In this document: positions 1-54,596 of the stretch, piece by piece
Numbering within the stretch: position 1 is the stretch's first letter
How the letters are laid out: each line of letters opens with the position of its first letter
DNA from: Candidatus Yanofskybacteria bacterium
GTDB lineage: Bacteria > Patescibacteriota > Minisyncoccia > 2-02-FULL-40-12 > GWA2-44-9
Length of the DNA stretch: 64,000 bases
NCBI GenBank assembly: GCA_020852375.1
Contig: JADZAY010000003.1
Coordinates: 6 to 64,005 of the forward strand
Direction: 5' to 3'
Position numbers and translations under genes: made by a program
Notes under the pieces: model-generated
What the model was told of the DNA's origin: nothing
What the model saw: the letters and a program-made list of their open reading frames with translations, nothing else
Databases searched by the model: none

Positions 1-116
1 GCCGGTAATACCTGAAGACCCCTATTTTCCTGGGGGGACACGGTAGGATCGGTAACAGGGAGTAAGTCGTAACAAGGCAAGGCTAGCGGAAGCTGGTCTT
101 GGATCACCTCCTTTCT
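1..116 (+). rRNA. rrs: 16S rRNA, 3' terminal fragment (gene starts upstream of window)
   Basis: Conserved 3' end AAGTCGTAACAAGG...GGATCACCTCCTTTCT including the anti-SD CACCTCCTT. No 23S or tRNA follows. Confidence 0.9.
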
Positions 117-5165: not shown

Positions 5166-6194
5166 ATGGCGAATATCGCGATAAATGGGTTCGGGCGTAT
5201 CGGGCGGGCGCTCTTCAAGCTTGCACTTACCAAGTCGGAGCTTAATATCGTTGCCATCAATGATCTGGGGGACCCCGAGAACCTAGCGTACTTGCTTCGG
5301 TTCGATTCCGCATACGGGCGGTATCAGCACGACGTGTCCGTGGAGGAAGTCGACGGAAAGACGTGGCTTGTAGCCGGGGGTCGGCGCTTCCTCTTTCTTC
5401 AGGAGAAGGATCCCGCGGCTCTCCCGTGGGGTGATCTCGGCGTCGATATCGCCGTCGAGGCGACGGGCGTCTTTGAGAGCTATGAGAAGGCGCGGGTGCA
5501 TCTGACCGCGGGTGCCAAGCGGGTCGTTCTTACTGCGCCTGCAAAGGATGACGATGGCCCGGATGCCCGTACAGTGCTGGTCGGGGTGAACACCGACCAG
5601 CTTAAGACGTGCACGCTGTCGAACAATGGGTCGTGCACGACGAATTCCGCTTCCCCGGTCATTCAGATATTGCAGGAGGGCCTCGGCATCAAGAAGGCGT
5701 TCTTGAATACCGTCCATGGATATACCGCGACACAGAGCCTAATCGATGGGCCGACGAAGGGACACGACTTTCGCCGAGGGCGCGCAGCGGCGGCGAATAT
5801 CACGCCCTCGAGTACGGGCGCGGCGATCGCAGTAGCCCGTGTTGTCGACGGTATGGACGGTCATTTTGATGGAATGTCCCTTCGAGTCCCGATCCTTACC
5901 GGGTCCATTTCCGCGATCACCTTCCTCGCAAAGCGAAAGACGACCCCCGAAGAGATCAATACGGTGCTCGAGAGTGCCGCAAAGGATCCGCGATGGAGCG
6001 GCGTGTTTACGGTGACCCGTGACCAGCTGGTGTCGTCGGATATCATCGGTGACCCGCATGCCGCGATCGCGGATCTATCACTGACCAAGGTTGTGGACGG
6101 CGATCTGTGCGCTGTGTACAGCTGGTACGACAATGAATTCGGCTATACGAACTCTCTTGTCATGCACGTCCTAGCAGCGGCTGCCGCATTGTGA
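5166..6194 (+). CDS. gap: Glyceraldehyde-3-phosphate dehydrogenase, type I
   Basis: NGFGRIGR Rossmann motif and active-site SCTTNS (catalytic Cys retained). Full-length 342 aa. Confidence 0.95.
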   Translation: MANIAINGFGRIGRALFKLALTKSELNIVAINDLGDPENLAYLLRFDSAYGRYQHDVSVEEVDGKTWLVAGGRRFLFLQEKDPAALPWGDLGVDIAVEATGVFESYEKARVHLTAGAKRVVLTAPAKDDDGPDARTVLVGVNTDQLKTCTLSNNGSCTTNSASPVIQILQEGLGIKKAFLNTVHGYTATQSLIDGPTKGHDFRRGRAAAANITPSSTGAAIAVARVVDGMDGHFDGMSLRVPILTGSISAITFLAKRKTTPEEINTVLESAAKDPRWSGVFTVTRDQLVSSDIIGDPHAAIADLSLTKVVDGDLCAVYSWYDNEFGYTNSLVMHVLAAAAAL

Positions 6195-6249
6195 GCATTC
6201 ATATCCGGCGACCTGCTTCGTTTCCGAGTGCTGCGAGTCCGCTCAACTG

Positions 6250-7113
6250 ATGTCCGAATATATCTCTGAAAAGAAGGTGCAAGAGCTCGAGCTGAAGGCG
6301 AACGAGATCCGCCAGAGCGTTATTGAGATGCTTGTTGCGGCGGGCTCGGGGCATACCGCAGGGCCGTTGGGTATGGCAGACATCTTCACCGCCATGTATT
6401 TTCACGTGCTTAACCACGATCCGGAGAACCCTGACCTTTCCTCGCGGGATCGTTTGGTGCTCTCGAACGGGCATATCACTCCCGTCCGGTATGCTGCCAT
6501 GGCGCACGCAGGGTATTTCCCGATCGAGGAGCTGAAGACGCTTCGGAAGCTGGGGAGCCGCCTTCAGGGGCATCCCGAGCGCTCCCGGCTTCCCGGTCTT
6601 GAGACGACTTCCGGCCCGTTGGGATCGGGTCTTGGGCAGGCCGTTGGTATGGCGCTGGCGGCGCGGATGGACCGTGCGTACTGGCGGACATACTGCTTCA
6701 TGTCCGACGGTGAGCAGGACGAGGGTGTGGTGTGGGAATCGGCGATGTTCGCCGGCAAGGAGCGGCTTTCGAATCTCACGGGCATTATTGATCGCAATAA
6801 TATCCAGATCGATGGCATGACCGAGCAGGTCATGCCGCTGGAGTCGCTGCGAGCGAAATGGGAGGCGTTCAATTGGCATGTGCTCGAGGTCGATGGCCAC
6901 AACATCGAGGCGTTCGTGGATGCAATTCAGCAGGCGAAGGCCATCTTCGAGAAGCCGACCGTCATTATTGCGCATACGATCCCGGGAAAAGGAGTGAAAG
7001 AGATCGAGTTCGATTACACATGGCACGGGGTGCCTCCCAAGGCGGATGAGGCCAAGCGATTCCTTGCCGAGTTGCGGACGCTTCGTGGTACGATACAGAG
7101 TGAACATCAATAA
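6250..7113 (+). CDS. Transketolase, N-terminal (TPP-binding) subunit of a split transketolase
   Basis: GSGHTAGPLGMADI...SDGEQDEG TPP-binding motifs. 287 aa, corresponding to the N-terminal third of Tkt. Confidence 0.9.
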   Translation: MSEYISEKKVQELELKANEIRQSVIEMLVAAGSGHTAGPLGMADIFTAMYFHVLNHDPENPDLSSRDRLVLSNGHITPVRYAAMAHAGYFPIEELKTLRKLGSRLQGHPERSRLPGLETTSGPLGSGLGQAVGMALAARMDRAYWRTYCFMSDGEQDEGVVWESAMFAGKERLSNLTGIIDRNNIQIDGMTEQVMPLESLRAKWEAFNWHVLEVDGHNIEAFVDAIQQAKAIFEKPTVIIAHTIPGKGVKEIEFDYTWHGVPPKADEAKRFLAELRTLRGTIQSEHQ

Positions 7114-10414: not shown

Positions 10415-10750
10415 TTACGGGGTTATTGTTTTCTTTTGCCATCCACCCAACATCCTCCCAATCTCATTGAGTTTTAGTGAAAGGGCGATATACTTCTTAT
10501 CGTTCAATGCTTGGAATTCCCAGCAAATCCGCAGGAAGAACTTGAGTGCATCGAGTGCTGTGGATGCCCGCTTCAAGTATCCGTCCTTTTGTCCGGGTTG
10601 ACGATAGGTCGCCGTGAAGATATTTTCTATGATGACAATAAAAAGCGAATCGATTTTTATTCCGAGACTATGCCGCAATTCTTTGCTGAACTGGAGCCGA
10701 TAGATGTGCCAGATTTTATAGGCGTCAATCAGTTTTTGAATGATTGGCAA
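10415..10750 (-). CDS. avd: Avd-like accessory variability determinant (four-helix-bundle / 23S rRNA IVS protein family)
   Basis: ~110 aa. C-terminal ...LSLKLNEIGRMLGGWQKK resembles the IVS-protein/Avd C-terminus. Located between TR and RT. Confidence 0.65.
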   Translation of the reverse strand: MPIIQKLIDAYKIWHIYRLQFSKELRHSLGIKIDSLFIVIIENIFTATYRQPGQKDGYLKRASTALDALKFFLRICWEFQALNDKKYIALSLKLNEIGRMLGGWQKKTITP

Positions 10751-11729
10751 GGTCTGGTTGGGGGGGGGTCTTCATAGTTTTGATACTATCACTTCCGTCG
10801 AGAACTTGCTCGGTGCATGGCAGGAATTCGTGCGCGGCAAAAAGACCAAGCCCGATGTACAAGAGTTCGGCCTTGGCTTGATGGATGCCATCCTCACTTT
10901 GCATGATGACCTCGTCACCGATTCTTACCACCATAGTCCATATCTCAAATTCCGCATCAATGACCCAAAGCCTCGCGATATAAGTAAGACCATTGTTCGC
11001 GACCGCCTCCTACATCATGCGCTCTACCGAGTGCTTTATCCATTCTTTGACGGGAAGTTCATTGCTGATTCCTATTCTTGCCGAGTCGCCAAGGGGGCGC
11101 ATCGAGCGCTGAACCGGTTCCGCGCCTTTGCCTGCCAGGTCAGCAAAAATCATACCCGTACCTGCTGGGTGCTAACATGTGATATTCGGAAGTTCTTTGC
11201 CAGCATCGATCATGGCATTCTGAACGACATCCTAGAAGCGCACATCTCCGACCCTGATACTCTCGGTCTCTTATCCGAAATCATCGAGAGCTTCTCACCC
11301 GGCTTACCCTTGGGCAACCTCACCTCTCAGCTTCTCGTGAACATCTACATGAATGAGTTCGATCAGTTCGCAAAACGACAACTCAAGACCAAGCACTATA
11401 TCCGCTACGCGGATGACTTTGTATTCTTGCATCAGGACAAGGGTTATTTGGAAGAACTGCTCCCGAGGGTCGGCGCCTTTCTCAGTGAGCGATTGAAGCT
11501 CAATCTGCATCCAAAAAAAGTATCTATCACGACTCTCGCCTCCGGTATCGACTTTCTCGGCTGGGTGCATTTTCCCGACCATCGGGTTCTACGGACAACC
11601 ACGAAACGGCGGATGATTCGGCGGGTTGTTAGCGGTACAACCGACGAACAAGCCGCGTCATATCGCGGCTTGTTGAGTCACGGCAACACCAAGAAACTGA
11701 TTAGTTTGCTTCCTGCTTCGGGAGCTTGA
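10740..11729 (+). CDS. DGR reverse transcriptase
   Basis: RT motifs present, including YADDFVF. The motif-4 residues LPLGNLTSQLL give the DGR-specific [ILV]GxxxSQ signature in place of the group-II QGxxxSP. Start uncertain (possibly TTG ~10758, after a G8-9 homopolymer). Confidence 0.85.
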   Translation: MIGKVWLGGGLHSFDTITSVENLLGAWQEFVRGKKTKPDVQEFGLGLMDAILTLHDDLVTDSYHHSPYLKFRINDPKPRDISKTIVRDRLLHHALYRVLYPFFDGKFIADSYSCRVAKGAHRALNRFRAFACQVSKNHTRTCWVLTCDIRKFFASIDHGILNDILEAHISDPDTLGLLSEIIESFSPGLPLGNLTSQLLVNIYMNEFDQFAKRQLKTKHYIRYADDFVFLHQDKGYLEELLPRVGAFLSERLKLNLHPKKVSITTLASGIDFLGWVHFPDHRVLRTTTKRRMIRRVVSGTTDEQAASYRGLLSHGNTKKLISLLPASGA

Positions 11730-42768: not shown

Positions 42769-42839
42769 CGGGCTGTGGTATAACGGTATTACGCATGGCT
42801 GGGGGTCATGTAACCCGGGTTCAACTCCCGGCAGCCCGA
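42769..42839 (+). tRNA. tRNA-Pro (anticodon GGG)
   Basis: CGGGCTG-TG-GTAT..., anticodon arm CATGG-CTGGGGG-TCATG (U33, GGG) and T-arm CCGGG-TTCAACT-CCCGG. Acceptor 3' CAGCCCG plus A. Confidence 0.7.
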
Positions 42840-47945: not shown

Positions 47946-49142
47946 ATGGCAGACGCATTCGATCGTAGCAAGCCACACGTCAACATTGGTACCATTGGCC
48001 ACGTTGACCACGGAAAGACCACCCTCACGGCAGGTATCCTGCACGTGCTGGACATGTACAAAGATGAGGGCTATGGCGCTCGCGTTGAGGCCATCGACTC
48101 CATCGACAAAGCTCCGGAGGAAAAGGCCCGCGGTATCACCATTCAGCTCCACCACTCGGAGTACTGGACGCCGAACCGCCACTACGCACACATCGACGCT
48201 CCGGGACACGCTGACTACATCAAGAACATGATCACGGGAGCCGCCCAGATGGACGGCGCGATCCTGGTTGTTGCTGCCACGGACGGCGCAATGCCGCAGA
48301 CCCGCGAGCACATCTTGCTTGCGAAGCAGGTCGGCGTTCCGTACATCATCGTCTTCCTGAACAAGGTGGATATGGTGGACGACAAGGAAATGCTCGACCT
48401 CGTTGAGGCTGAGCTGAAGGACCTGCTCGCAAAGTATGGCTTCACCGATTCTCCGATCATCCGCGGTTCGGGCCTGAAGGCTCTCGAGGGTAAGTCGAAG
48501 GATGATGAGTACGTGAAGGCGGTCAAGCAGCTCATCGACACCTGCGACAGCTACATCGCCGAGCCGAAGCGCGAGACGGACAAGCCGTTCCTCATGCCGG
48601 TGGAGGACATCTTCACCATCGAGGGTCGCGGTACCGTTGTCACTGGCCGCATCGAGCGCGGTATGTGCAAGGTCAACGATGAAGTCGAAGTCGTCGGTCT
48701 CCGCCCGACCCAGAAGACGGTCATCACGGGCATCGAGATGTTCAACAAGTCGCTCAACGAGGGTCTCGCAGGCGACAATGCCGGTATCCTTATCCGCGGT
48801 CTGAAGAAGGAAGATGTCGAGCGCGGACAGGTGCTTGCGAAGCCGGGTTCTATCACCCCGCACACCGAGTTCGAGGCCGAGATCTACGTTCTGACCAAGG
48901 AAGAGGGTGGCCGCCACACTCCGTTCTTCAAGGGCTACAAGCCGCAGTTCTACTTCCGCACCACGGATGTTACCGGTGAAGTGTTCCTCCCGGAGGGTTC
49001 CGAGATGATCATGCCGGGCGACACGGTGACCGTGAAGGTGGTCCTTATTGCCCCGATCGCTATGGAGGAGAAGCTCCGCTTCGCTATCCGCGAGGGCGGT
49101 AAGACCGTCGGCGCCGGTGCGGTTACGAAGATCAGCAAGTAA
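47946..49142 (+). CDS. tuf: Elongation factor Tu
   Basis: [10 protein letters not shown]. 398 aa from ATG 47946. Confidence 0.97.
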
Positions 49143-49166: not shown

Positions 49167-49493
49167 ATGGCCAAGAAAACCGACAAACAAGAAGCACGCA
49201 TCCGCATCAAGCTCCGTGCGTACGACAACAAGATCATCGATAAGTCCGCGCGACAGATCGCGGACACGATCGAGCGATATGGCGGCAAGCCGGTAGGACC
49301 GGTACCGCTCCCGACCGAGATCTCAAAGTTTACGGTTAACCGCGCGTCGTTCATCGATAAACACTCACGCGAGCAGTTCGAGATGCGCATTCACAAGCGG
49401 CTCATCGATATCCACGGGCCAACCCCGAAGATCATCGAGTCGCTCACCAACCTTGCCCTTCCGGCAGGGGTGGACATCGAAATCAAGATGTAG
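49167..49493 (+). CDS. rpsJ: 30S ribosomal protein S10
   Basis: [20 protein letters not shown]... classic S10. Confidence 0.95.
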
Positions 49494-49504
49494 TCGACGG
49501 CCAT

Positions 49505-49547
49505 GCGTCAAAACCCCGGCACCCCCACAAAGGGTGCCGTTGGGTTT
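49505..49547 (+). terminator. Rho-independent terminator immediately after rpsJ
   Basis: ccggcaccc-ccacaaa-gggtgccg followed by ttgggttttttga. Confidence 0.7.
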
Positions 49548-49737
49548 TTTGACCCTGCGGGCTTGCCCGATTTCTGCGTTGCTCGCTCCGGTCCTCCCTC
49601 GCCGTACCCTTTAGTACGGCTCGGTTCGGTCCTCGCGTCCGCCTCGTCCGCGTCCAAGCGCAGGCCGCTGGGGGAATCGGGAATGGCTAGACGAGACACT
49701 ATGAAGACCGTTTGACGTGGAACTCGGGAGGCGTAGT

Positions 49738-50388
49738 ATGTCCGCCATGCCTTCGATATTTTTAGACGAAAGTGGTGACCTAGGTTTTCGTTCCAGCAAG
49801 AGCGGATCTTCCCGCTTCTTTGTTGTTACCGTTATGTTTATTCCCGGGAGTGTGCGACCGGTCGAGAAGGTAGTATCAAAAACACACGCGTATTTGAATG
49901 CGGCAAAAGGCGGTCATCCGGGCGTGCTGCACGCTGTCAATGAATCGCCTGCGGTTCGAAAATATTTATTAAAATTGTTAAGCAAGAGAGATTGCAAGGT
50001 GATGGCAATCGTTCTGAATAAGAAAAAAGTCTTTACTAAATTACACGAAGAAAAGGCTGTCCTATACAACTTTGTAACAAACATCTTACTAGAACGAATC
50101 TATGCGAGGCATATCGTGCCAACCGGTGACGCAATCGATCTCGTGGCTTCAAAGCGAGAAACAAACAAATTTTTAAACGAGAATTTTAAGGATTACCTAA
50201 GGAGGCAAGTAACCCAGAGAAAGGACGGGGAATTGCGCGTACACATCCAGACTCCCGCACAGCACAAGGCGCTTCAAGCTGTTGATTTTGCGAGTTGGGC
50301 AATTTTTAGAAAACACGAGAAGGGAGACCCCGAATACTGTAATATCATCAGAAATATAGTTGTTGAGGAGAGCCCTTTATTCCCCTAG
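49738..50388 (+). CDS. DUF3800-family protein
   Basis: N-terminal IFLDESGD motif is the DUF3800 hallmark. SD GGGAGG 7 nt upstream. Confidence 0.7.
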   Translation: MSAMPSIFLDESGDLGFRSSKSGSSRFFVVTVMFIPGSVRPVEKVVSKTHAYLNAAKGGHPGVLHAVNESPAVRKYLLKLLSKRDCKVMAIVLNKKKVFTKLHEEKAVLYNFVTNILLERIYARHIVPTGDAIDLVASKRETNKFLNENFKDYLRRQVTQRKDGELRVHIQTPAQHKALQAVDFASWAIFRKHEKGDPEYCNIIRNIVVEESPLFP

Positions 50389-50563
50389 AAATACAAAACC
50401 TCGTGCGCTATTTGCGAGCAACCTTCCGGAAGCCCACGCACGAGGAATTACTTGTAAGTACAATATACACGCTTGTTATCCACAAGTCAATGGCTAGGAA
50501 ACAAAGTCGCCATTGAGTCAAGTTCTGGCTCCGAGGCCGGTTTTTTGCTAGATTTGCCGAGCT

Positions 50564-51187
50564 ATGGATATAAACTATTGGTATTATCCTCTCAGTGCAA
50601 TTCCTCAGACGTTAGCCGCAATGATTGCGCTGGCTGCGACCTTTGCGGCTGTGAAGTTAGATGTTTTTTCTAAGAAACTTGCGGAAAGCCGCAAAGACTT
50701 AAGGCGTTTTATTCTTCTAGTGACAACGGGTCTGAATTCGGACGAAAAAGAGATACATACAATCGAACCTCTAAGCAACCTAGAATTTCTCAATCTTTAT
50801 AAGAAGGGTTTGGCGGGTCTCAAGAGCGGGGACCCAGCGTTCGGATTGGAGCCTGCAACCTACGCGAAGTATCAGCAGGAGATGTATAGGATAATTAATT
50901 CAGAGTGGAACAGCTTCTTTTCAGCTAAGGATTTTAGGATCCTGGGCTACCTTTCGATGAAGAAAGATACCTTCGAAGATCTTCTACAGAAACGAATCAA
51001 GATTATCCGGTGGACCACTCAAAGTCTGGTGTTCGCGGCAATTGTCGCGGGAATTTCCTTGGCTATATTACCGTGCTTTAAGTATTTTCACGGCTCAATT
51101 TTAATAGTCGGGCTCATTACGGGTGTCGCCGTGCTGAGTATTTTAGCGACTGCGTTCAATGTCTGGAGAATTGCGAGGATGGATTAG
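50564..51187 (+). CDS. Hypothetical membrane protein (1 N-terminal + 2 C-terminal TM)
   Basis: AT-rich ORF with hydrophobic segments at both ends. Confidence 0.5.
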   Translation: MDINYWYYPLSAIPQTLAAMIALAATFAAVKLDVFSKKLAESRKDLRRFILLVTTGLNSDEKEIHTIEPLSNLEFLNLYKKGLAGLKSGDPAFGLEPATYAKYQQEMYRIINSEWNSFFSAKDFRILGYLSMKKDTFEDLLQKRIKIIRWTTQSLVFAAIVAGISLAILPCFKYFHGSILIVGLITGVAVLSILATAFNVWRIARMD

Positions 51188-51270
51188 CTTTTCTGGTCGG
51201 ATTGCTGCTTTCATTTCAGCGATAAATTGGGGCCGTTGATCAGAAGAGTCGTCAAGAGTATGCTGGACGG

Positions 51271-51963
51271 GTGATACAAGATGATGTCATCAGCTATCGC
51301 CAGATGTGTGACGCTGAGGAGGTTCAGACTCTGCAACGAGGAATGAACTATCGGTTATGGACTACCTATTCGGTGGTATTAATGTCGCAACGTGGGAACG
51401 CGCCATATGCTGACCGAGTCCATGACGATGGTATTACCATCGAATACGAGGGACACGACGAGCCTCGGAGTTCCGACCAGCCGAATCCAAAAACGGTAGA
51501 TCAACCATCGCAGACATCGATGGGGACACCAACCCAGAATGGTCTATTTAAGAAGGCGGTCGATGATTTCAAGGCTGGCAAATGTGGGCCCGAAAAGGTG
51601 AAGGTCTACGAAAAGCTATATCCCGGGGTTTGGTCACTGAAAGGGTTTTTTGATCTACGGGACTACGAGATAGTTCATGATGGCGTGCGGAACGTCTTCC
51701 GGTTTATTTTGCGCCTGTCTGAAGACCCAACGGAAAGGGCGGAGCGTGTGTCGGCATCATTTCATACTCGAGTGATTCCTTCAGAAGTGAAGAAGGCCGC
51801 ATATAAGCGCGACAAGGGGCAGTGTCAGATTTGTGGGTCAAAAGTAAACCTTCACTTTGACCACGACCTCCCGTATTCGAAAGGAGGTTCGAGCCTCACT
51901 GCCGAGAATGTTCGACTACTCTGCGCTAAACACAACCTAGAGAAGGGTGCTAAGATTCAATAA
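51271..51963 (+). CDS. SRA(YDG)-like domain + HNH nuclease (type IV modification-dependent restriction endonuclease-like)
   Basis: C-terminal CQICGSKVNLHFDHDLPYSKGG...LLCAKHN HNH motif. N-terminal YADRVHDDGITIEYEGHD and GPEKVKVYEKLYPGVWSLKGFFDLRDYEIVHDGVRNVFRFILRL resemble SRA-domain conserved blocks. Confidence 0.65.
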   Translation: MIQDDVISYRQMCDAEEVQTLQRGMNYRLWTTYSVVLMSQRGNAPYADRVHDDGITIEYEGHDEPRSSDQPNPKTVDQPSQTSMGTPTQNGLFKKAVDDFKAGKCGPEKVKVYEKLYPGVWSLKGFFDLRDYEIVHDGVRNVFRFILRLSEDPTERAERVSASFHTRVIPSEVKKAAYKRDKGQCQICGSKVNLHFDHDLPYSKGGSSLTAENVRLLCAKHNLEKGAKIQ

Positions 51964-51978
51964 TTAATAATTTGCACA

Positions 51979-52524
51979 ATGTTTGACCCAAAAGCCGTGC
52001 TCGGGCTATTTCTTTCAGTGGTGGCAAGGTATTGGTACTTTGTTCTGCTGGCTTTTGCTGTTTGGGTTATTGGCGAGTTGCTCTCTAGGAGGAGGCGGCA
52101 GGGATATCTTTATAGGCGGAAGGACTGTCCAATGACAAAATCTGAGCAAGTTTTTTATAAAGTTCTCGCGGGCGTCGTCGATGGGCGGTATTATGTTTTC
52201 CCACAGGTTCATCTGGATGCTCTACTTGAGCACAAGGTTCCCGGGCAGCGGTGGCAAGCTGCGTGGAGGCACATCAATGAGAAGTCGGTTGACTTTGTTC
52301 TCTGTGACAAGACTTCTTTGCGCACAGAGTTGGTGATCGAACTCGATGATTTTTCCCATGAGCGACCTGATCGCATTGAACGCGATAAGGAAGTCGAACG
52401 GATTTTGCAGGAGGCGCACTTGCCGCTCCTTCGCATCCCGCGAAGTGAGAGTTACGCTGGAAATGAAGTCGCACGGTCGATTAGCGAGGGTGTCGGAGGG
52501 GCATCGTTTGGCCCTACGTTGTAG
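51979..52524 (+). CDS. DUF2726-domain protein (restriction-endonuclease-like fold) with N-terminal TM
   Basis: VDFVLCD...LVIELDDFSHERPDRIERDKEVERILQEAHLPLLRI matches the DUF2726 core (D...E.D..H). Confidence 0.65.
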   Translation: MFDPKAVLGLFLSVVARYWYFVLLAFAVWVIGELLSRRRRQGYLYRRKDCPMTKSEQVFYKVLAGVVDGRYYVFPQVHLDALLEHKVPGQRWQAAWRHINEKSVDFVLCDKTSLRTELVIELDDFSHERPDRIERDKEVERILQEAHLPLLRIPRSESYAGNEVARSISEGVGGASFGPTL

Positions 52525-52813
52525 GCCTAACTCGCGAGGATGCGGTTCTTGACTTATGCGCAGAAATGGTGTATGATGGCTTCAGATGGGGTATGAAGCC
52601 CTGTCAGGAGGATAGAAGTCGTGCGCGAGCGGTTCTACACGTTCCTGGCGTGCCTCAAGTCCGACTTCGTCAACTGCTGGTTCCGGGGCGACGGCCCCTG
52701 CCAGAACCCCAAGCACTGGCAGTAGCGGCCGAAGCCTGGCCCGGGCGGAAGTGGAAACGCTTCCGCCTTTTCTTTTTTTGGAAGTGTGGTACAACCAAGT
52801 CCGGAGGTGGCGT

Positions 52814-53101
52814 ATGGCGGATACAAAGGATGTGGATGATCTTGCCGAAGACCTGGCCACTGTTGAAGGAGCAGTGAACCACATCAGTGCCGGCGTGCAC
52901 CGTGTGCTGACGACGTTCGCCGCAGGTGTGCGGCAGGACGCGGATGCGCTCTGTGCCCGTCTCAACCACGAGCCCGAAGTTCAGCTCTGGATCGCGGAGC
53001 ACGGGTTTCGGAGTCTTGCCGATGTGCCTCGCGAGCGCGTCCTCAGCGAGCTCATTCCTGCCGTCTACGCGCAGCACGGTGGCCGCGATCAGAGGCACTG
53101 A
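52814..53101 (+). CDS. Hypothetical protein
   Basis: SD GGAGGTG 4 nt upstream of ATG 52814. 95 aa. Confidence 0.45.
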   Translation: MADTKDVDDLAEDLATVEGAVNHISAGVHRVLTTFAAGVRQDADALCARLNHEPEVQLWIAEHGFRSLADVPRERVLSELIPAVYAQHGGRDQRH

Positions 53102-53356
53102 AAGATTCCCGCGTATGTACGCGGGACTTTTCTTTTTTCGGAATGCGCATACAATCGTGGGCGGAGGTGAGCTGTGGTAAGTCCGTACGAACCTGTGAAG
53201 TTGGTTGTGTGTCCGCGGTGTCGCGGAGCTGAGGTGGTCGAAGCGCAGAAGGGCTCCCGAGATTCTTACGAGCCAGTCGGGCTGAAGCGATGCCCGACTT
53301 GCAAGGGCACCGGCACGGTTGCACAGCGACAGCTCGCCCGCATTGCTCGGTAAGTC

Positions 53357-53390
53357 CAGCGCGCTTCCCCCTCGCCGCCATCCGGCCGCG
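53357..53390. repeat. 34-nt repeat / terminator-like hairpin (ttccccctcgccgccatccggccgcgagggg), copy 1
   Basis: Identical copy at 53722-53755. Both are followed by T-rich runs. Confidence 0.75.
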
Positions 53391-53455
53391 AGGGGTTTTT
53401 GTTGAACATTGACACGACTATATAAGCGATGTACGATTCATCTTAGGAGGGTTCG

Positions 53456-53701
53456 ATGAATCCATGGCTGGTGTCCGGGTTGGTTCTCGTGTGGGCCGCG
53501 CTGGGCATCCTGGGTTGGGCGTGGTTCAATTACATGCTCAACAGGGCGTATCCGCTCGGAGCGGGTGGGGCGGCGGTGGGAAGCGTCAAGGTCTTTGCGC
53601 TGCTGGTCGGGATTCTTGGCGGGCCGATCGCCATCCTGAACACAGCGGTCGAAGCCCGCAATTTTCCGGGAGTCCATCGCTGGGGCCTCCGCTTCTGGTA
53701 G
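53456..53701 (+). CDS. Small membrane protein (81 aa, 2-3 TM)
   Basis: Strong SD (taGGAGGGttcgATG). Hydrophobic. Confidence 0.55.
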   Translation: MNPWLVSGLVLVWAALGILGWAWFNYMLNRAYPLGAGGAAVGSVKVFALLVGILGGPIAILNTAVEARNFPGVHRWGLRFW

Positions 53702-53721
53702 AAGGTCGGCATCCGTTCCCG

Positions 53722-53755
53722 TGCTTCCCCCTCGCCGCCATCCGGCCGCGAGGGG
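53722..53755. repeat. 34-nt repeat / terminator-like hairpin, copy 2
   Basis: Identical to 53357-53390. Confidence 0.75.
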
Positions 53756-53775
53756 GGTCTTTCTTTAACGTGGGC

Positions 53776-53804
53776 TTGCATTCTTTTGGGGGTTCGTGTA
53801 TAGT
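53776..53804 (+). promoter_or_regulatory. Sigma70-like promoter for the rplC-secY operon (TTGCAT-17nt-TATAGT)
   Basis: ttgcattcttttgggggttcgtgtatagt. Confidence 0.55.
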
Positions 53805-53936
53805 CGGTGGGCTGACTTGAGCCGGGCGGCCGGCCTCTCAGCAGGGGTTTCCAGGTAGGCGTTAGAACCAGCCCGAGACGCCCCGACCGTGCGGTAGGTC
53901 CTTCGATGGATACCCTCGCACGTTGCTTCGCAGCTT

Positions 53937-53960
53937 GTCTGCATGAAGCAGACTTTTTTA
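53937..53960 (+). promoter_or_regulatory. Leader attenuator-like hairpin + T-tract immediately upstream of the rplC start
   Basis: gtctgc-atgaa-gcagac followed by tttttta. Sits ~135 nt downstream of the promoter. Confidence 0.45.
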
Positions 53961-53966
53961 TTGGAA

Positions 53967-54596
53967 ATGGCCAAAATGCTCGCAAAATTCATGCTTGCCA
54001 CCAAACTGGGGATGACCCAGGTATATGGCGATAAGGGTGAAATGATCGGAGTGACCCTGTTGCAGGCCGCCCCGAATGTGGTGACACAGGTCAAAACCGT
54101 TGAGAAGGACGGCTACGCTGCGGTTCAGCTGGGTGCGGGCACAAAGAAAGCGAAGAACATCAAGAAGGGGCTTCGTGGCCACTTCAAGGACCTTGGTAAT
54201 TTCCGCTGGACGCGCGAGTTTCGCGCAACATCGGTCGGTGGTAAGGATCTGGTCGTCGGCGATCGCGTCGATGTCTCGATCTTTGCTCCCGGCGATACGG
54301 TTCGCGTGAGCGGTCTCACCAAAGGAAAGGGTTTTGCCGGTGCGGTGAAGCGTCATGGGTTCCATGGTGCGCCTGCATCTCACGGGCACAAGCATGTTCA
54401 GCGCCATGTCGGCTCTATCGGTCAGCGCTTCCCGCAGCACACGCTGAAGGGAACTCGCGGTCCGGGTCGCGATGGCCAGGAGCGGGTGAGCATTCGCGGA
54501 TTGAAGGTTATTGTTGCCGATGCCGACACCGGTGTTCTTGCGGTGAAGGGTGCTATTCCCGGTGCGAAGGGCTCGCTGCTTGAGGTCACTGCCTAA
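53967..54596 (+). CDS. rplC: 50S ribosomal protein L3
   Basis: KLGMTQVY...start region. Start is ambiguous among the ATGs at 53943, 53967, 53976 and 53991; 53967 (MAKM...) lies just after the hairpin. Confidence 0.93.
   Translation: MAKMLAKFMLATKLGMTQVYGDKGEMIGVTLLQAAPNVVTQVKTVEKDGYAAVQLGAGTKKAKNIKKGLRGHFKDLGNFRWTREFRATSVGGKDLVVGDRVDVSIFAPGDTVRVSGLTKGKGFAGAVKRHGFHGAPASHGHKHVQRHVGSIGQRFPQHTLKGTRGPGRDGQERVSIRGLKVIVADADTGVLAVKGAIPGAKGSLLEVTA

What the first reader, a model, noticed from the sequence alone, without database searches (positions are those of the whole stretch)
49494..53966. AT-richer accessory island inserted into the S10 operon between rpsJ and rplC
rpsJ (S10) is followed by a strong intrinsic terminator. 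Then come ~4.4 kb of visibly lower-GC DNA, before a new TTGCAT-17-TATAGT promoter and rplC. In most bacteria rpsJ and rplC are adjacent and co-transcribed, and insertions here are rare. The insert encodes a DUF3800 protein (IFLDESGD), a 3-TM protein, an SRA-like + HNH nuclease, a DUF2726 nuclease-fold protein, several small proteins including a possible unannotated ~59-aa CxxC...CxxC zinc-ribbon ORF at ~53174-53353 (GTG start after GGAGGTG), and an 81-aa membrane protein. The content resembles phage-defense or modified-DNA restriction cargo. The sequence tcc(c)cctcgccg recurs at the left edge (49588-49600) and in both copies of a 34-nt hairpin repeat near the right edge. These could be remnants of insertion-site duplications.
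Basis: partly seen in the sequence, partly recalled or inferred. Interest (0 to 1): 0.8.

Follow-up and report, generated by a model that had tools for sequence, protein, structure and literature searches.

The report
Defence-gene patch between rpsJ and rplC
In this candidate-phylum (Patescibacteria) genome the gap between two ribosomal-protein genes is a long-standing variable zone. About 2.85 kb of it is a foreign, AT-richer patch of likely anti-phage genes, so it is an ordinary kind of genomic hotspot that holds two unexpected conserved RNA-like elements.

Summary
The low-GC DNA covers only about 49.69-52.55 kb. It holds four genes with GC 0.44-0.51, against 0.585 ± 0.033 for 69 other ORFs.

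The remaining 1.4 kb has native GC. It holds four small self-contained cassettes, and three of them have orthologues in the same order in a sister genome (S10 98% identical). That sister also has a 5.8-kb rpsJ-rplC spacer, with different low-GC genes in the same slot.

So this is an inter-operon spacer that serves as a plasticity zone, not one 4.4-kb insertion into an operon.

The cargo is:
- a DUF3800 protein with an RNase HII-like predicted fold;
- a rare 3-TM protein;
- a TagI-like SRA-HNH enzyme, probably a modification-dependent restriction endonuclease (fold search);
- a membrane-anchored DUF2726 protein.

I found no integrase, att site or flanking duplication. The proposed shared edge motif occurs at chance level.

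Two by-products are more novel. One is a covarying ~66-nt structured motif that starts 2-8 nt after the DUF3800 stop codon in six distinct loci and matches nothing in Rfam 15. The other is a ~115-nt covarying hairpin ("E1") that recurs in ribosomal-operon spacers of Patescibacteria and lies immediately upstream of the cargo.

The parts
49167..49493 (+). rpsJ (ribosomal protein S10), transcribed after tuf
   Evidence: ORF. It is 98% identical to S10 of L090 and 57-82% identical to 80 Patescibacteria loci.
49517..49549 (+). Intrinsic terminator of the tuf-rpsJ transcript
   Evidence: Hairpin CGGCACCC/GGGTGCCG followed by TTGGGTTTTT.
49552..49666 (+). E1: a long imperfect hairpin of about 39 base pairs. 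It is a conserved multi-copy element of ribosomal-operon spacers in Patescibacteria.
   Evidence: RNAalifold and pair counts give 87.6% of cells paired, against 25-42% when partners are slid. 27 of 39 pairs show compensatory changes, and 0 of 500 shuffles reach this. The covariance model R1 hit spans 49537-49677 at 118.5 bits. Other copies lie after rpsJ (L090, L002, L070), after secY (L090-92, L031), after rpsI (L085), between rpsG and fusA (L047) and after rplO on the minus strand (L070). No Rfam match.
49712..49739 (+). Promoter-like site of the DUF3800 module (TTGACG-16-TAGTAT)
   Evidence: Found by the scan. The region is conserved with L095, the closest DUF3800 locus.
49747..50388 (+). 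DUF3800 protein of 213 aa with an RNase HII-like fold. It has the DE motif (FLDESGD) and the QxxD motif (LQAVDF).
   Evidence: Pfam PF12686, E 1.5e-10. PADLOC DUF3800_VII, E 3e-5. Homologues are 55-77% identical, mostly 212-214 aa, and the named ones are all Patescibacteria. AlphaFold model pLDDT 87.6; the top PDB match is 1EKE (RNase HII), E 4.9e-6, TM 0.55. The start at 49747 is inferred from family length and the alignment.
50390..50458 (+). Structured motif downstream of DUF3800. It has a 4-bp outer helix, a 9-bp covarying helix and a highly conserved ~29-nt apical region.
   Evidence: Present 2-8 nt after the stop codon in six distinct loci: window, L095, L098, L106, L109 and L024. In the 9-bp helix, 5 of 9 pairs show compensatory changes, 90.7% of cells are paired against 26-57% when slid, and 0 of 500 shuffles reach this. 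The outer helix also covaries. Model R2 matched only its six training sites (seven loci, two with identical sequence) in 1.37 Mb, apart from one marginal hit (19 bits, E 0.88) on the opposite strand of the L106 site. No Rfam 15 match at E<=10 or E<=1.
50525..50550 (+). Terminator-like hairpin with T-run that ends the DUF3800 module
   Evidence: An equivalent terminator is present in L095 and L098.
50564..51187 (+). TM207: a 207-aa protein with three predicted transmembrane segments, from a rare family of unknown function
   Evidence: No hit reaching the curated cut-off in Pfam, and no hit at E<=0.1 in NCBIfam, PHROGs or PADLOC. 59 cluster representatives at E<=1e-3, most of them ~180-220 aa. 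Hydrophobic segments near residues 12-36, 150-175 and 173-201. No homologue found in any of the 118 fetched loci.
51271..51963 (+). SRA-HNH protein of 230 aa with a GTG start. Probably a modification-dependent (type IV) restriction endonuclease of the TagI type.
   Evidence: HNH is PF01844, 27.7 bits. The AlphaFold model has pLDDT 81. Foldseek places TagI 6ghs on top (E 7.2e-8), followed by SRA domains of SUVH5/6, UHRF1/2, AspBHI and ScoMcrA. More than 5,500 proteins match at E<=0.001, and the best 119 homologues (besides the window's own protein, P0001) are 62-84% identical. C185, C188, H195, D197, H198, N213, C218 and N222 are invariant and H221 nearly so. The public annotation starts 24 codons too late (206 aa, P0001).
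51979..52524 (+). DUF2726 protein of 181 aa. It has an N-terminal hydrophobic anchor and a restriction-endonuclease-fold domain.
   Evidence: PF10881, E 1.6e-30. Hydrophobic windows at residues 6-36. A DUF2726 gene also follows the SRA-HNH gene in L085 and L086.
52549..52778 (+). sp34 cassette: promoter TTGACT-17-TATGAT, a 34-aa Cys-containing ORF at 52621-52725, and a terminator at 52743-52778
   Evidence: The orthologue in L090 at 6174-6275 is 73.5% identical. Homology with L090 resumes exactly at 52549. Coding status is not proven, because differences fall 5/6/5 across codon positions.
52814..53136 (+). sp95 cassette: a 95-aa ORF at 52814-53101 with its terminator at 53107-53136
   Evidence: Orthologues are 77-80% identical in L090, L091 and L092, in the same order. 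34 of 60 nucleotide differences fall at the third codon position, with 22 synonymous against 22 non-synonymous codons. No family hit passing cut-offs; only one weak PADLOC match at E 0.015.
53174..53395 (+). zn59 cassette: a 59-aa CxxC...CxxCxGxG ORF at 53174-53353 (GTG start after GGAGGTG) with a hairpin terminator at 53364-53395
   Evidence: Only weak, sub-threshold matches to the DnaJ zinc-finger and anti-TRAP families, E ~1e-4. No orthologue in L090-92, which carry a different 74-77-aa Cys-rich membrane protein in this position. It is a plausible gene, not a proven one.
53409..53756 (+). tm81 cassette: promoter TTGACA-17-TACGAT, an 81-aa two-TM ORF at 53456-53701, and a hairpin at 53724-53756
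   Evidence: The orthologue in L090 is 85% identical, and L090 also has a paralogue. Hydrophobic segments.
53775..53966 (+). rplC promoter (TTGCAT-17-TATAGT) and a ~165-nt conserved leader that ends in a hairpin plus U-run at 53937-53963
   Evidence: The promoter block is 100% identical in the window, L090, L091 and L092. The leader is highly conserved up to its last ~40 nt, where the final hairpin is replaced by a different hairpin plus U-run in the relatives.
53967..54596 (+). rplC (ribosomal protein L3), first gene of the downstream ribosomal operon
   Evidence: 87% identical to L3 of L090-L094.

Best explanation
The rpsJ-rplC interval is an inter-operon spacer. In this 'Candidatus Yanofskybacteria' lineage it has become a plasticity zone with three layers.

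1. Conserved fixtures:
   - the rpsJ terminator;
   - the E1 hairpin;
   - at the far end, the rplC promoter and leader.

2. An ancestral array of small, independently transcribed genes (sp34, sp95, tm81, plus a variable position that holds zn59 here).

3. A hypervariable slot immediately downstream of E1. In this genome the slot holds a ~2.85-kb mosaic of accessory modules from the Patescibacteria/environmental gene pool:
   - DUF3800 with its 3' structured RNA;
   - a 3-TM protein;
   - an SRA-HNH nuclease followed by a DUF2726 nuclease-fold protein.

Shown:
- the compositional deviation;
- absence of the cargo from the sister genome, which has other low-GC genes in the same slot;
- the domain and fold assignments;
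- the covariation of both RNA-like elements;
- synteny of the small genes.

Inferred:
- The cargo arrived by recombination rather than by a site-specific integrase, possibly using E1 copies as homology.
- It acts in defence. The SRA domain would flip out 5mC or 5hmC on invading DNA, and the HNH domain would then cut, as in TagI.
- DUF3800 would act as an RNase H-like nuclease together with its cis-encoded RNA. The mechanism is unknown.
For: Composition:
- z-scores of -2.2 to -4.3 for the four genes. The only other low-GC patch in the 64 kb is a reverse-transcriptase/bAvd pair.

Sister genome L090 (S10 98%, EF-Tu 97.5%, L3 87% identical):
- Its spacer is 5.8 kb. Homology breaks at window 49492 and resumes at 52549.
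- sp34, sp95 and tm81 orthologues follow in the same order.
- Its own slot (GC 0.45-0.51) holds two unrelated ORFs.
- The related contigs L091 and L092 show further cassette turnover.

Mosaic cargo:
- The nearest DUF3800 (77% identical) sits beside AIPR and Mrr genes. Others sit beside a second DUF3800, MazE and a methyltransferase, or a type III restriction-like helicase.
- The nearest SRA-HNH (84% identical) sits in an unrelated context.
- The 75% homologue is followed by DUF2726 and lies in an island with DUF4145, Fic and MazG-like genes. That island also starts right after an E1 copy, downstream of rpsI.

Folds:
- TagI and RNase HII are the top structural matches.

E1 and cargo:
- Cargo begins 19-45 nt after E1 in the window, L090 and L085.
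- L090 carries an orphan copy of the window-type E1 3' arm between its two cargo ORFs: 31 of 37 positions identical, score 42 against a shuffle maximum of 26.

No mobile-element hallmarks:
- No integrase or transposase family was hit.
- No tRNA lies nearer than 42.8 kb.
- No significant flanking direct repeat.
Against: - No defence function has been tested, and PADLOC gives only weak single-gene hits with no complete system.
- Whether the host lacks cytosine methylation, which an SRA-HNH enzyme would require, cannot be seen from 64 kb.
- Loss in the sister lineage, rather than gain here, is not excluded.
- The E1-as-recombination-substrate idea rests on three loci and one orphan fragment. E1 also occurs with no cargo (L070 and L047), and other expanded spacers (L049, L053, L039) have no E1.
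- The source is a metagenome-assembled contig, and read support for the junctions could not be checked.
Confidence: 0.7

Rival explanations
1. One reading: a single ~4.4-kb island was inserted into the S10 operon by a site-specific event, leaving short duplicated target sequences at both edges.
For: The interval is unusually long, 4.47 kb against a median of 166 nt in 66 relatives. A C-rich 12-13-mer looks similar at the left edge and in the right-hand hairpins (family D7: 16 nt, 81%).
Against: The right 1.4 kb has native GC and is orthologous in the sister genome. The motif occurs at chance frequency. The left copy is part of the conserved E1 hairpin found elsewhere. The right copies are cassette terminators also seen in L091. 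No integrase was found.
Confidence: 0.04
2. The low-GC block is ancestral to the lineage and was lost or replaced in the sister genome. Its low GC would reflect the general AT-richness of a fast-turnover accessory gene pool rather than recent transfer into this genome.
For: Both sister genomes have low-GC genes in exactly the same slot. The DUF3800 subfamily is typical of Patescibacteria, so the genes are not foreign to the phylum.
Against: No gene is shared between the two slots. GC and GC3 are unameliorated at 2-4 sd below the host. The nearest homologues, at 77-84% identity, lie in unrelated contexts.
Confidence: 0.12
3. The block is an assembly or binning artefact: a chimeric join in a metagenome-assembled contig.
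For: The source is a MAG contig of 67 kb. Composition changes abruptly. The only independent assembly found (L089, 1 kb) covers just rplC.
Against: Both flanks rejoin the sister genome's order exactly: rpsJ with E1 on the left, the sp34 promoter on the right. That would need two chimeric joins at syntenic positions. The sister genome independently has a low-GC block in the same slot. The DUF3800 promoter region grades from high to low GC without a break.
Confidence: 0.04
4. The cargo consists of selfish or addiction-type elements rather than a host defence set. The SRA-HNH gene would be a mobile nuclease gene spreading for its own sake, and DUF3800 plus its RNA would be an autonomous genetic element.
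For: The SRA-HNH family is extremely conserved (62-84% identity) across many unrelated contexts, which indicates frequent transfer. DUF3800 always travels with its RNA motif. Several contigs end shortly after the DUF3800 module.
Against: The neighbours are classic defence genes: AIPR, Mrr, restriction and methyltransferase genes, toxin-antitoxin genes and HEPN/DUF4145. TagI-type enzymes restrict modified phage DNA (PMC6212794).
Confidence: 0.12

Closest known systems
SRA-HNH modification-dependent restriction endonucleases (TagI, ScoA3IV/Sco5333, TbiR51I; PMC6212794, PMC6765204)
   Same: Same two-domain order, with SRA at the N-terminus and HNH at the C-terminus, and similar size (230 aa against 285 aa). 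TagI is the best structural match, E 7e-8. The zinc-binding cysteines and the HNH residues are invariant across the family.
   Different: No detectable sequence similarity to TagI or any solved SRA domain: phmmer against the PDB finds only an IscB HNH match at E 0.036, and Pfam SAD_SRA gives no hit. Identity in the structural alignment is 18%. It forms its own very conserved family of ~232 aa. Modification specificity is unknown. It is sometimes paired with a DUF2726 gene.
DUF3800-associated structured RNA motifs DUF3800-I to -XI (Weinberg et al. 2017, PMC5737381); also retron type VII DUF3800 (PMC7736814) and Cas12a2-associated TPR-DUF3800 (PMC10910872)
   Same: A structured, covarying RNA-like motif sits next to a DUF3800 gene and is followed by an intrinsic terminator. 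The protein has the DE and QxxD motifs and an RNase H2-like fold, with the same best template (1EKE) as reported for the retron-linked proteins.
   Different: It matches no Rfam 15 family, although Rfam holds at least DUF3800-I and DUF3800-IX (PMC11701678). It has a fixed position and strand, 2-8 nt after the stop codon, whereas the published motifs lie on either side and either strand. It has been seen only with the ~213-aa Patescibacteria subfamily. No reverse transcriptase or Cas12 is adjacent.
Defence islands and integration hotspots between conserved core genes (general knowledge of bacterial genomics)
   Same: Strain-specific, compositionally deviant, mosaic defence-type genes sit between conserved flanking genes, with different cargo in the same slot in a sister genome.
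   Different: The hotspot lies between rpsJ and rplC inside the ribosomal super-operon region of a reduced Patescibacteria genome. No integrase, tRNA or mobile-element hallmarks are present. It lies alongside an ancestral array of tiny stand-alone genes.
Intergenic palindromic repeat elements such as ERIC or REP/BIME of enterobacteria (own knowledge), as a comparison for E1
   Same: A ~115-nt imperfect palindrome in several copies per genome. It lies in transcribed spacers next to highly expressed operons and occurs in either orientation.
   Different: It is conserved by covariation across genomes whose S10 proteins are only 63-98% identical. It is restricted, so far, to spacers of the ribosomal-protein cluster. 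No relationship to any described family.

Membership tests
SRA-HNH modification-dependent restriction endonucleases (TagI family) | N-terminal SRA (PUA-like) fold domain | tested here: met
   AlphaFold model with pLDDT 81. Foldseek ranks TagI 6ghs first (E 7.2e-8), and 32 PDB chains match at E<=1e-3, nearly all carrying SRA domains: SUVH5/6/9, KRYPTONITE, UHRF1/2, AspBHI, ScoMcrA. At sequence level, Pfam SAD_SRA is not hit.
SRA-HNH modification-dependent restriction endonucleases (TagI family) | C-terminal HNH (beta-beta-alpha-Me) nuclease with zinc-binding cysteines and the catalytic His/Asn residues | tested here: met
   PF01844 scores 27.7 bits against a cut-off of 21.4. C185, C188, H195, D197, H198, N213, C218 and N222 are invariant and H221 nearly so in 40 sequences.
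SRA-HNH modification-dependent restriction endonucleases (TagI family) | Cleavage depends on 5mC or 5hmC in the substrate, with a pocket for the flipped base | not testable with these tools
   This needs biochemistry. The pocket residues were not mapped.
DUF3800 (PF12686) | Profile match above the curated threshold, with the N-terminal DE motif and the C-terminal QxxD motif | tested here: met
   42.4 bits against a cut-off of 21. FLDESGD and LQAVDF are read directly from the sequence. D7, E8, Q177 and D180 are invariant in 40 homologues. The motif definition comes from PMC7736814.
DUF3800 (PF12686) | RNase H(2)-like fold | tested here: met
   Model pLDDT 87.6. 1EKE (RNase HII) is the only significant PDB match: E 4.9e-6, TM 0.55.
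Published DUF3800-I..XI RNA motifs (Rfam) | Match to one of the Rfam covariance models | tested here: not met
   cmscan found no DUF3800 family match at E<=10 in the window region or at E<=1 in five homologous loci. It therefore works like these motifs, as an RNA partner of DUF3800, but is not a member of any curated one. I could not verify that all eleven motifs are in Rfam.
DUF2726 (PF10881, restriction-endonuclease fold) | Profile match above the curated threshold | tested here: met
   105.9 bits against a cut-off of 24.7. Classed in the PD-(D/E)xK superfamily in PMC3424549. The catalytic residues were not examined.
Integrative genomic island or integrative mobile element | Compositional deviation and absence from a close relative at the same locus | tested here: met
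Integrative genomic island or integrative mobile element | Integrase, recombinase or transposase gene | tested here: not met
   Pfam, NCBIfam, PHROGs and PADLOC scans of all eight ORFs gave no such hit.
Integrative genomic island or integrative mobile element | Flanking direct repeats (att sites or target duplication), or insertion at a tRNA gene | tested here: not met
   No significant flanking repeat. The nearest tRNA is at 42769.
Integron-type gene cassette array (considered for the four small cassettes) | Promoterless cassettes separated by attC sites, next to an intI integrase | tested here: not met
   Each cassette has its own promoter-like site and terminator. The only shared hairpin behaves as a terminator. 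No integrase was found in the interval.

The most novel reading that the evidence does not exclude
E1 may be a Patescibacteria-specific structured element of ribosomal-operon spacers that doubles as a landing pad. Accessory and defence cargo would be swapped in and out by recombination between E1 copies. That would explain why different low-GC cargo starts 19-45 nt after E1 in two sister genomes at rpsJ, and in a third genome at rpsI, which carries the same SRA-HNH/DUF2726 pair.

Separately, the ~213-aa DUF3800 proteins of Patescibacteria may be obligately coupled to a previously undescribed 3' structured RNA, forming an RNA-dependent RNase H-like module of unknown mechanism.
Probability: 0.2. 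Interest if true: 0.7.

Novelty: new member of a known kind. Interest (0 to 1): 0.45.

Why it matters
The island itself is an ordinary defence-type hotspot.

It does show that the ribosomal-protein super-operon of Patescibacteria, widely used as a stable phylogenetic marker block, is split at rpsJ|rplC. In this lineage the split hosts fast-turnover accessory genes.

Two by-products give concrete starting points:
- The DUF3800 3' motif adds a further structured RNA, with an unusually rigid gene linkage, to the unexplained DUF3800-RNA association. This makes a protein-RNA functional unit easier to test.
- E1 is a strongly covarying element of unknown role in ribosomal-operon spacers of an uncultivated phylum. 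Possible roles include RNA processing or stabilisation, attenuation, or acting as a recombination substrate.

The work also corrects the annotated start of the SRA-HNH gene and supports three unannotated or hypothetical small genes.

Tried and rejected
- **Exact-protein look-ups.** Look-ups of S10 and of the annotated HNH protein found no record. The source contig itself could therefore not be retrieved.
- **Metagenome scan.** I spent the single metagenome scan on an over-strict E1 pattern. It returned only a chance hit inside a recG gene.
- **Viral, phage and plasmid searches.** All were empty: viral-contig scans for E1 and for the DUF3800 motif, blastn of the island, blastn of the motif and tblastn of DUF3800. 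Plasmids hold only distant matches to the HNH domain.
- **Rfam.** Nothing matched in the interval except a sub-threshold Moco riboswitch hit that overlaps a terminator (23.6 bits against a cut-off of 36). I judged it to be chance.
- **E1 as a known RNA.** I considered E1 as an SRP, 6S or other known RNA and rejected this. There is no Rfam hit, and it is multi-copy and occurs in both orientations.
- **E1 as the island's own end or att site.** Rejected, because E1 also occurs without cargo (L070, L047) and is present after rpsJ in the sister genome.
- **A 360-nt tandem duplication.** Repeat families D1 and D2 are both spaced 360 nt. Only the terminator/promoter junction modules are similar, the ORFs are unrelated, and no further periodic copy exists, so I treat this as coincidence or reuse of the junction module.
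- **TM207 as a partner of DUF3800 or SRA-HNH.** No co-occurrence in any of the 118 loci.
- **Integron-like cassettes.** Rejected; see the membership test.
- **Not attempted.** A structure prediction for TM207 with its homologues, because those sequences came from a search whose results may not be submitted.

Full report
**What is there**

The window comes from a Patescibacteria (CPR) metagenome-assembled genome. The HNH, L3 and DUF3800 proteins are 100% identical to NCBI proteins named 'Candidatus Yanofskybacteria bacterium', on a 67-kb contig.

The main landmarks are:
- tuf ends at 49142.
- rpsJ is at 49167-49493.
- A hairpin with a T-run lies at 49517-49549.
- rplC starts at 53967 and is followed by rplD.

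The TTGCAT-17-TATAGT promoter at 53775-53803 is also present. The scan tool did not score it, but it is 100% conserved in three related genomes.

**Composition**

GC falls from ~0.58-0.60 to 0.43-0.51 only between about 49.75 and 52.25 kb. By 52.5 kb it is back at 0.57-0.63.

The four ORFs in the trough have GC 0.447, 0.444, 0.499 and 0.514. The 69 other ORFs of the window average 0.585 (sd 0.033), giving z = -4.2 to -2.2, and GC3 shifts the same way. The four small ORFs further right have GC 0.62-0.65. The foreign-looking DNA is therefore ~2.85 kb, not 4.4 kb.

**Comparison with relatives**

In 66 Patescibacteria loci where both genes could be placed, the rpsJ-rplC spacer has a median of 166 nt (IQR 108-290). 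Six spacers are at least 600 nt and two exceed 2 kb. rpsJ and rplC are thus generally separated in this group.

The decisive comparison is L090 (GCA_020847715.1), whose S10 is 98%, EF-Tu 97.5% and L3 87% identical. It also has a 5.8-kb spacer, with ten small plus-strand ORFs.
- DNA homology with the window stops at the rpsJ stop codon (49492) and resumes at 52549, which is the -35 box of the sp34 promoter.
- It then continues through orthologues of sp34 (73.5%), sp95 (77%) and tm81 (85%) in the same order, and through the rplC promoter and leader.
- Between these breakpoints L090 has its own lower-GC stretch (0.45-0.51) with two unrelated ORFs of 133 and 187 aa.
- Contigs L091 and L092, from a further relative, keep sp95 and the rplC leader but carry other small Cys-rich or membrane ORFs.

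sp95 shows a coding substitution pattern, with 34 of 60 differences at the third codon position. tm81 shows it more weakly, and sp34 is ambiguous.

Conclusion: the right-hand 1.4 kb is ancestral to the lineage. The slot just after rpsJ is hypervariable.

**The cargo**

1. **DUF3800.**
   - Pfam gives 42.4 bits against a cut-off of 21.
   - The likely start is ATG 49747, giving 213 aa as in the family.
   - The DE and QxxD motifs are present.
   - The model has pLDDT 87.6. Its only significant PDB match is RNase HII 1EKE (E 4.9e-6), the template already reported for retron-linked DUF3800 (PMC7736814).
   - Homologues are 55-77% identical, and all the named ones are Patescibacteria.

2. **TM207.** It has three hydrophobic segments and matches no curated family above threshold. 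The family is rare, with 59 cluster representatives.

3. **A 230-aa protein with a C-terminal HNH domain**.
   - It has more than 5,500 homologues, the best 119 of them 62-84% identical over the full length.
   - The N-terminal domain has no Pfam or PDB sequence match.
   - The predicted structure (pLDDT 81) matches TagI best (E 7.2e-8), followed by many SRA domains.
The protein is most likely a modification-dependent restriction enzyme of the TagI type (PMC6212794).
   - The conserved N-terminus shows that the gene starts at GTG 51271, not at the later ATG used in the public annotation.

4. **DUF2726.** Pfam gives 105.9 bits. It has an N-terminal hydrophobic anchor. This family has a restriction-endonuclease fold (PMC3424549, PMC3710099).

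**Is the cargo one unit?** No, it is a mosaic.
- The nearest DUF3800 (77%) lies next to AIPR and Mrr genes. Others lie next to a second DUF3800, MazE and a methyltransferase, or next to a type III restriction-like helicase.
- The nearest SRA-HNH (84%) has unrelated neighbours.
- The 75% homologue (L085/L086) is followed by a DUF2726 gene, although the two DUF2726 proteins are only 34% identical. It sits in an island with DUF4145, Fic and MazG-like genes.
- TM207 was found in none of the 118 fetched loci.

The contexts are typical defence islands. PADLOC, however, recognises no complete system.

**How did it get there?**

I found no integrase, transposase or nearby tRNA, and no significant flanking repeat.

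The left-edge sequence belongs to a conserved element, E1.
- Its paired region spans 49552-49666, and the covariance-model hit spans 49537-49677.
- It forms a ~39-bp imperfect hairpin. 87.6% of cells are paired, against 25-42% in slid controls. 27 of 39 pairs have compensatory changes, and 0 of 500 shuffles reach the observed values. These figures rest on only six sequences.
- A covariance model finds E1 after rpsJ in L090, L002 and L070, after secY in L090-92 and L031, after rpsI in L085, between rpsG and fusA in L047, and on the opposite strand after rplO in L070.
- No Rfam family matches.

Low-GC cargo begins 19-45 nt after E1 in the window, in L090 and in L085. L090 also has an orphan copy of the window-type E1 3' arm between its two cargo ORFs. 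This suggests, but does not prove, recombination at E1. E1 also exists without cargo, and other expanded spacers lack it.

**A structured motif tied to DUF3800**

DUF3800 genes are known to be accompanied by eleven different structured RNA motifs of unknown function (PMC5737381).

Here the sequence starting 2-8 nt after the stop codon is conserved in six distinct loci. Even the locus whose protein is only 41% identical retains the motif recognisably (68 bits with R2).
- It has a 9-bp helix in which 5 pairs show compensatory changes. 90.7% of cells are paired against 26-57% when slid, and 0 of 500 shuffles reach this.
- It has a covarying 4-bp outer helix and a nearly invariant apical sequence.
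- In most of the loci a terminator-like hairpin follows ~100-190 nt downstream of the motif start.
- It matches no Rfam 15 family, although Rfam contains at least DUF3800-I and DUF3800-IX (PMC11701678).
- Model R2 finds it nowhere else in 1.37 Mb. Those hits are its own training sequences, so independent confirmation is still lacking.

**The rplC side**

The promoter block is identical in four genomes, and the ~165-nt leader is highly conserved up to its last ~40 nt. The final hairpin plus U-run just before the start codon is replaced by a different hairpin plus U-run in the relatives. This fits an attenuator-type leader. Regulation by L4, as in the E. coli S10 leader, is my speculation from general knowledge.

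Together with the rpsJ terminator, this shows that rpsJ and rplC belong to separate transcription units here.

**Verdict**

The finding is real but is mis-sized and partly mis-explained. It is a defence-type accessory patch in a hypervariable slot of a lineage-specific plasticity zone between two operons. That is an ordinary kind of feature in an unusual place.

Two conserved RNA-like elements turned up along the way and deserve follow-up.

Main uncertainties:
- None of the functions has been tested.
- The source is a MAG and its junctions have not been checked against reads.
- Both covariation analyses rest on six sequences each.

Noticed in passing
window 50390-50458 (extending to the terminator at 50525-50550); also L095 821-889, L098 4643-4711, L106 3642-3709, L109 3646-3713, L024 1764-1830: A covarying ~66-nt structured motif starts 2-8 nt after the stop codon of the ~213-aa DUF3800 genes. 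It matches no Rfam 15 family and may be a new DUF3800-associated RNA.
   Followed up: partly
window 49537-49677; L090 4241-4383 and 20140-20287; L002 6531-6670; L070 10317-10458 and 19403-19549 (minus strand); L085 551-687; L031 12830-12975; L047 5059-5185: E1 is a ~115-nt imperfect hairpin with 27 of 39 pairs covarying. It recurs in spacers of the ribosomal-protein gene cluster (after rpsJ, secY, rpsI, rpsG and rplO) in several Patescibacteria. Its function is unknown.
   Followed up: partly
L090 4870-4906: An orphan copy of the window-type E1 3' arm (31 of 37 positions identical to window 49640-49675) lies between the two low-GC cargo ORFs of the sister genome. It may be a footprint of recombination at E1.
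   Followed up: partly
window 53775-53966: The rplC promoter is 100% identical in four genomes. The conserved ~165-nt leader ends in a hairpin plus U-run that is replaced by a different hairpin plus U-run in the relatives. It looks like an attenuator-type ribosomal-protein leader and matches no Rfam family.
   Followed up: partly
window 10415-11729: The only other low-GC patch in the window holds a bAvd-like gene (10415-10750, minus strand; PF22296, E 6e-13) overlapping a reverse transcriptase gene (10740-11729; RVT_1, E 1e-20). This is a DGR-like pair, next to a uracil-DNA glycosylase gene and tRNA-Ile.
   Followed up: no
window 1-114: The 3' end of the 16S rRNA lies at the window start. No 23S rRNA occurs in the following 64 kb, and tRNA-Ile and tRNA-Ala lie 12.5 kb away, so the rRNA genes are unlinked.
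   Followed up: no
window 51271-51342: The public annotation of the SRA-HNH gene (206 aa) starts 24 codons too late. The family alignment shows a conserved N-terminus that begins at GTG 51271.
   Followed up: yes
window 52695-52805: A sub-threshold match to the Moco riboswitch model (23.6 bits against a cut-off of 36, E 0.023) overlaps the end of sp34 and its terminator. It is probably chance.
   Followed up: no
window 52767-52809 and 53127-53169; 53360-53395 and 53720-53755: Two pairs of similar junction modules (T-run/promoter/Shine-Dalgarno, and terminator hairpin) are each spaced exactly 360 nt apart, although the ORFs between them are unrelated. This is unexplained and may reflect reuse of a junction module.
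   Followed up: partly
L049 8913-14525 and L053 10328-12797: Two other Patescibacteria have kb-scale rpsJ-rplC spacers. One holds housekeeping-type genes (GreA-like, Obg-like, a tRNA-binding protein). The other holds unknown minus-strand genes. The junction has been broken independently several times.
   Followed up: no
L109-L118 (contigs carrying DUF3800 protein P0274): Many independent assemblies end 180-350 nt after this DUF3800 gene, near a long perfect hairpin. This suggests a repeat or a structure that breaks assemblies.
   Followed up: no
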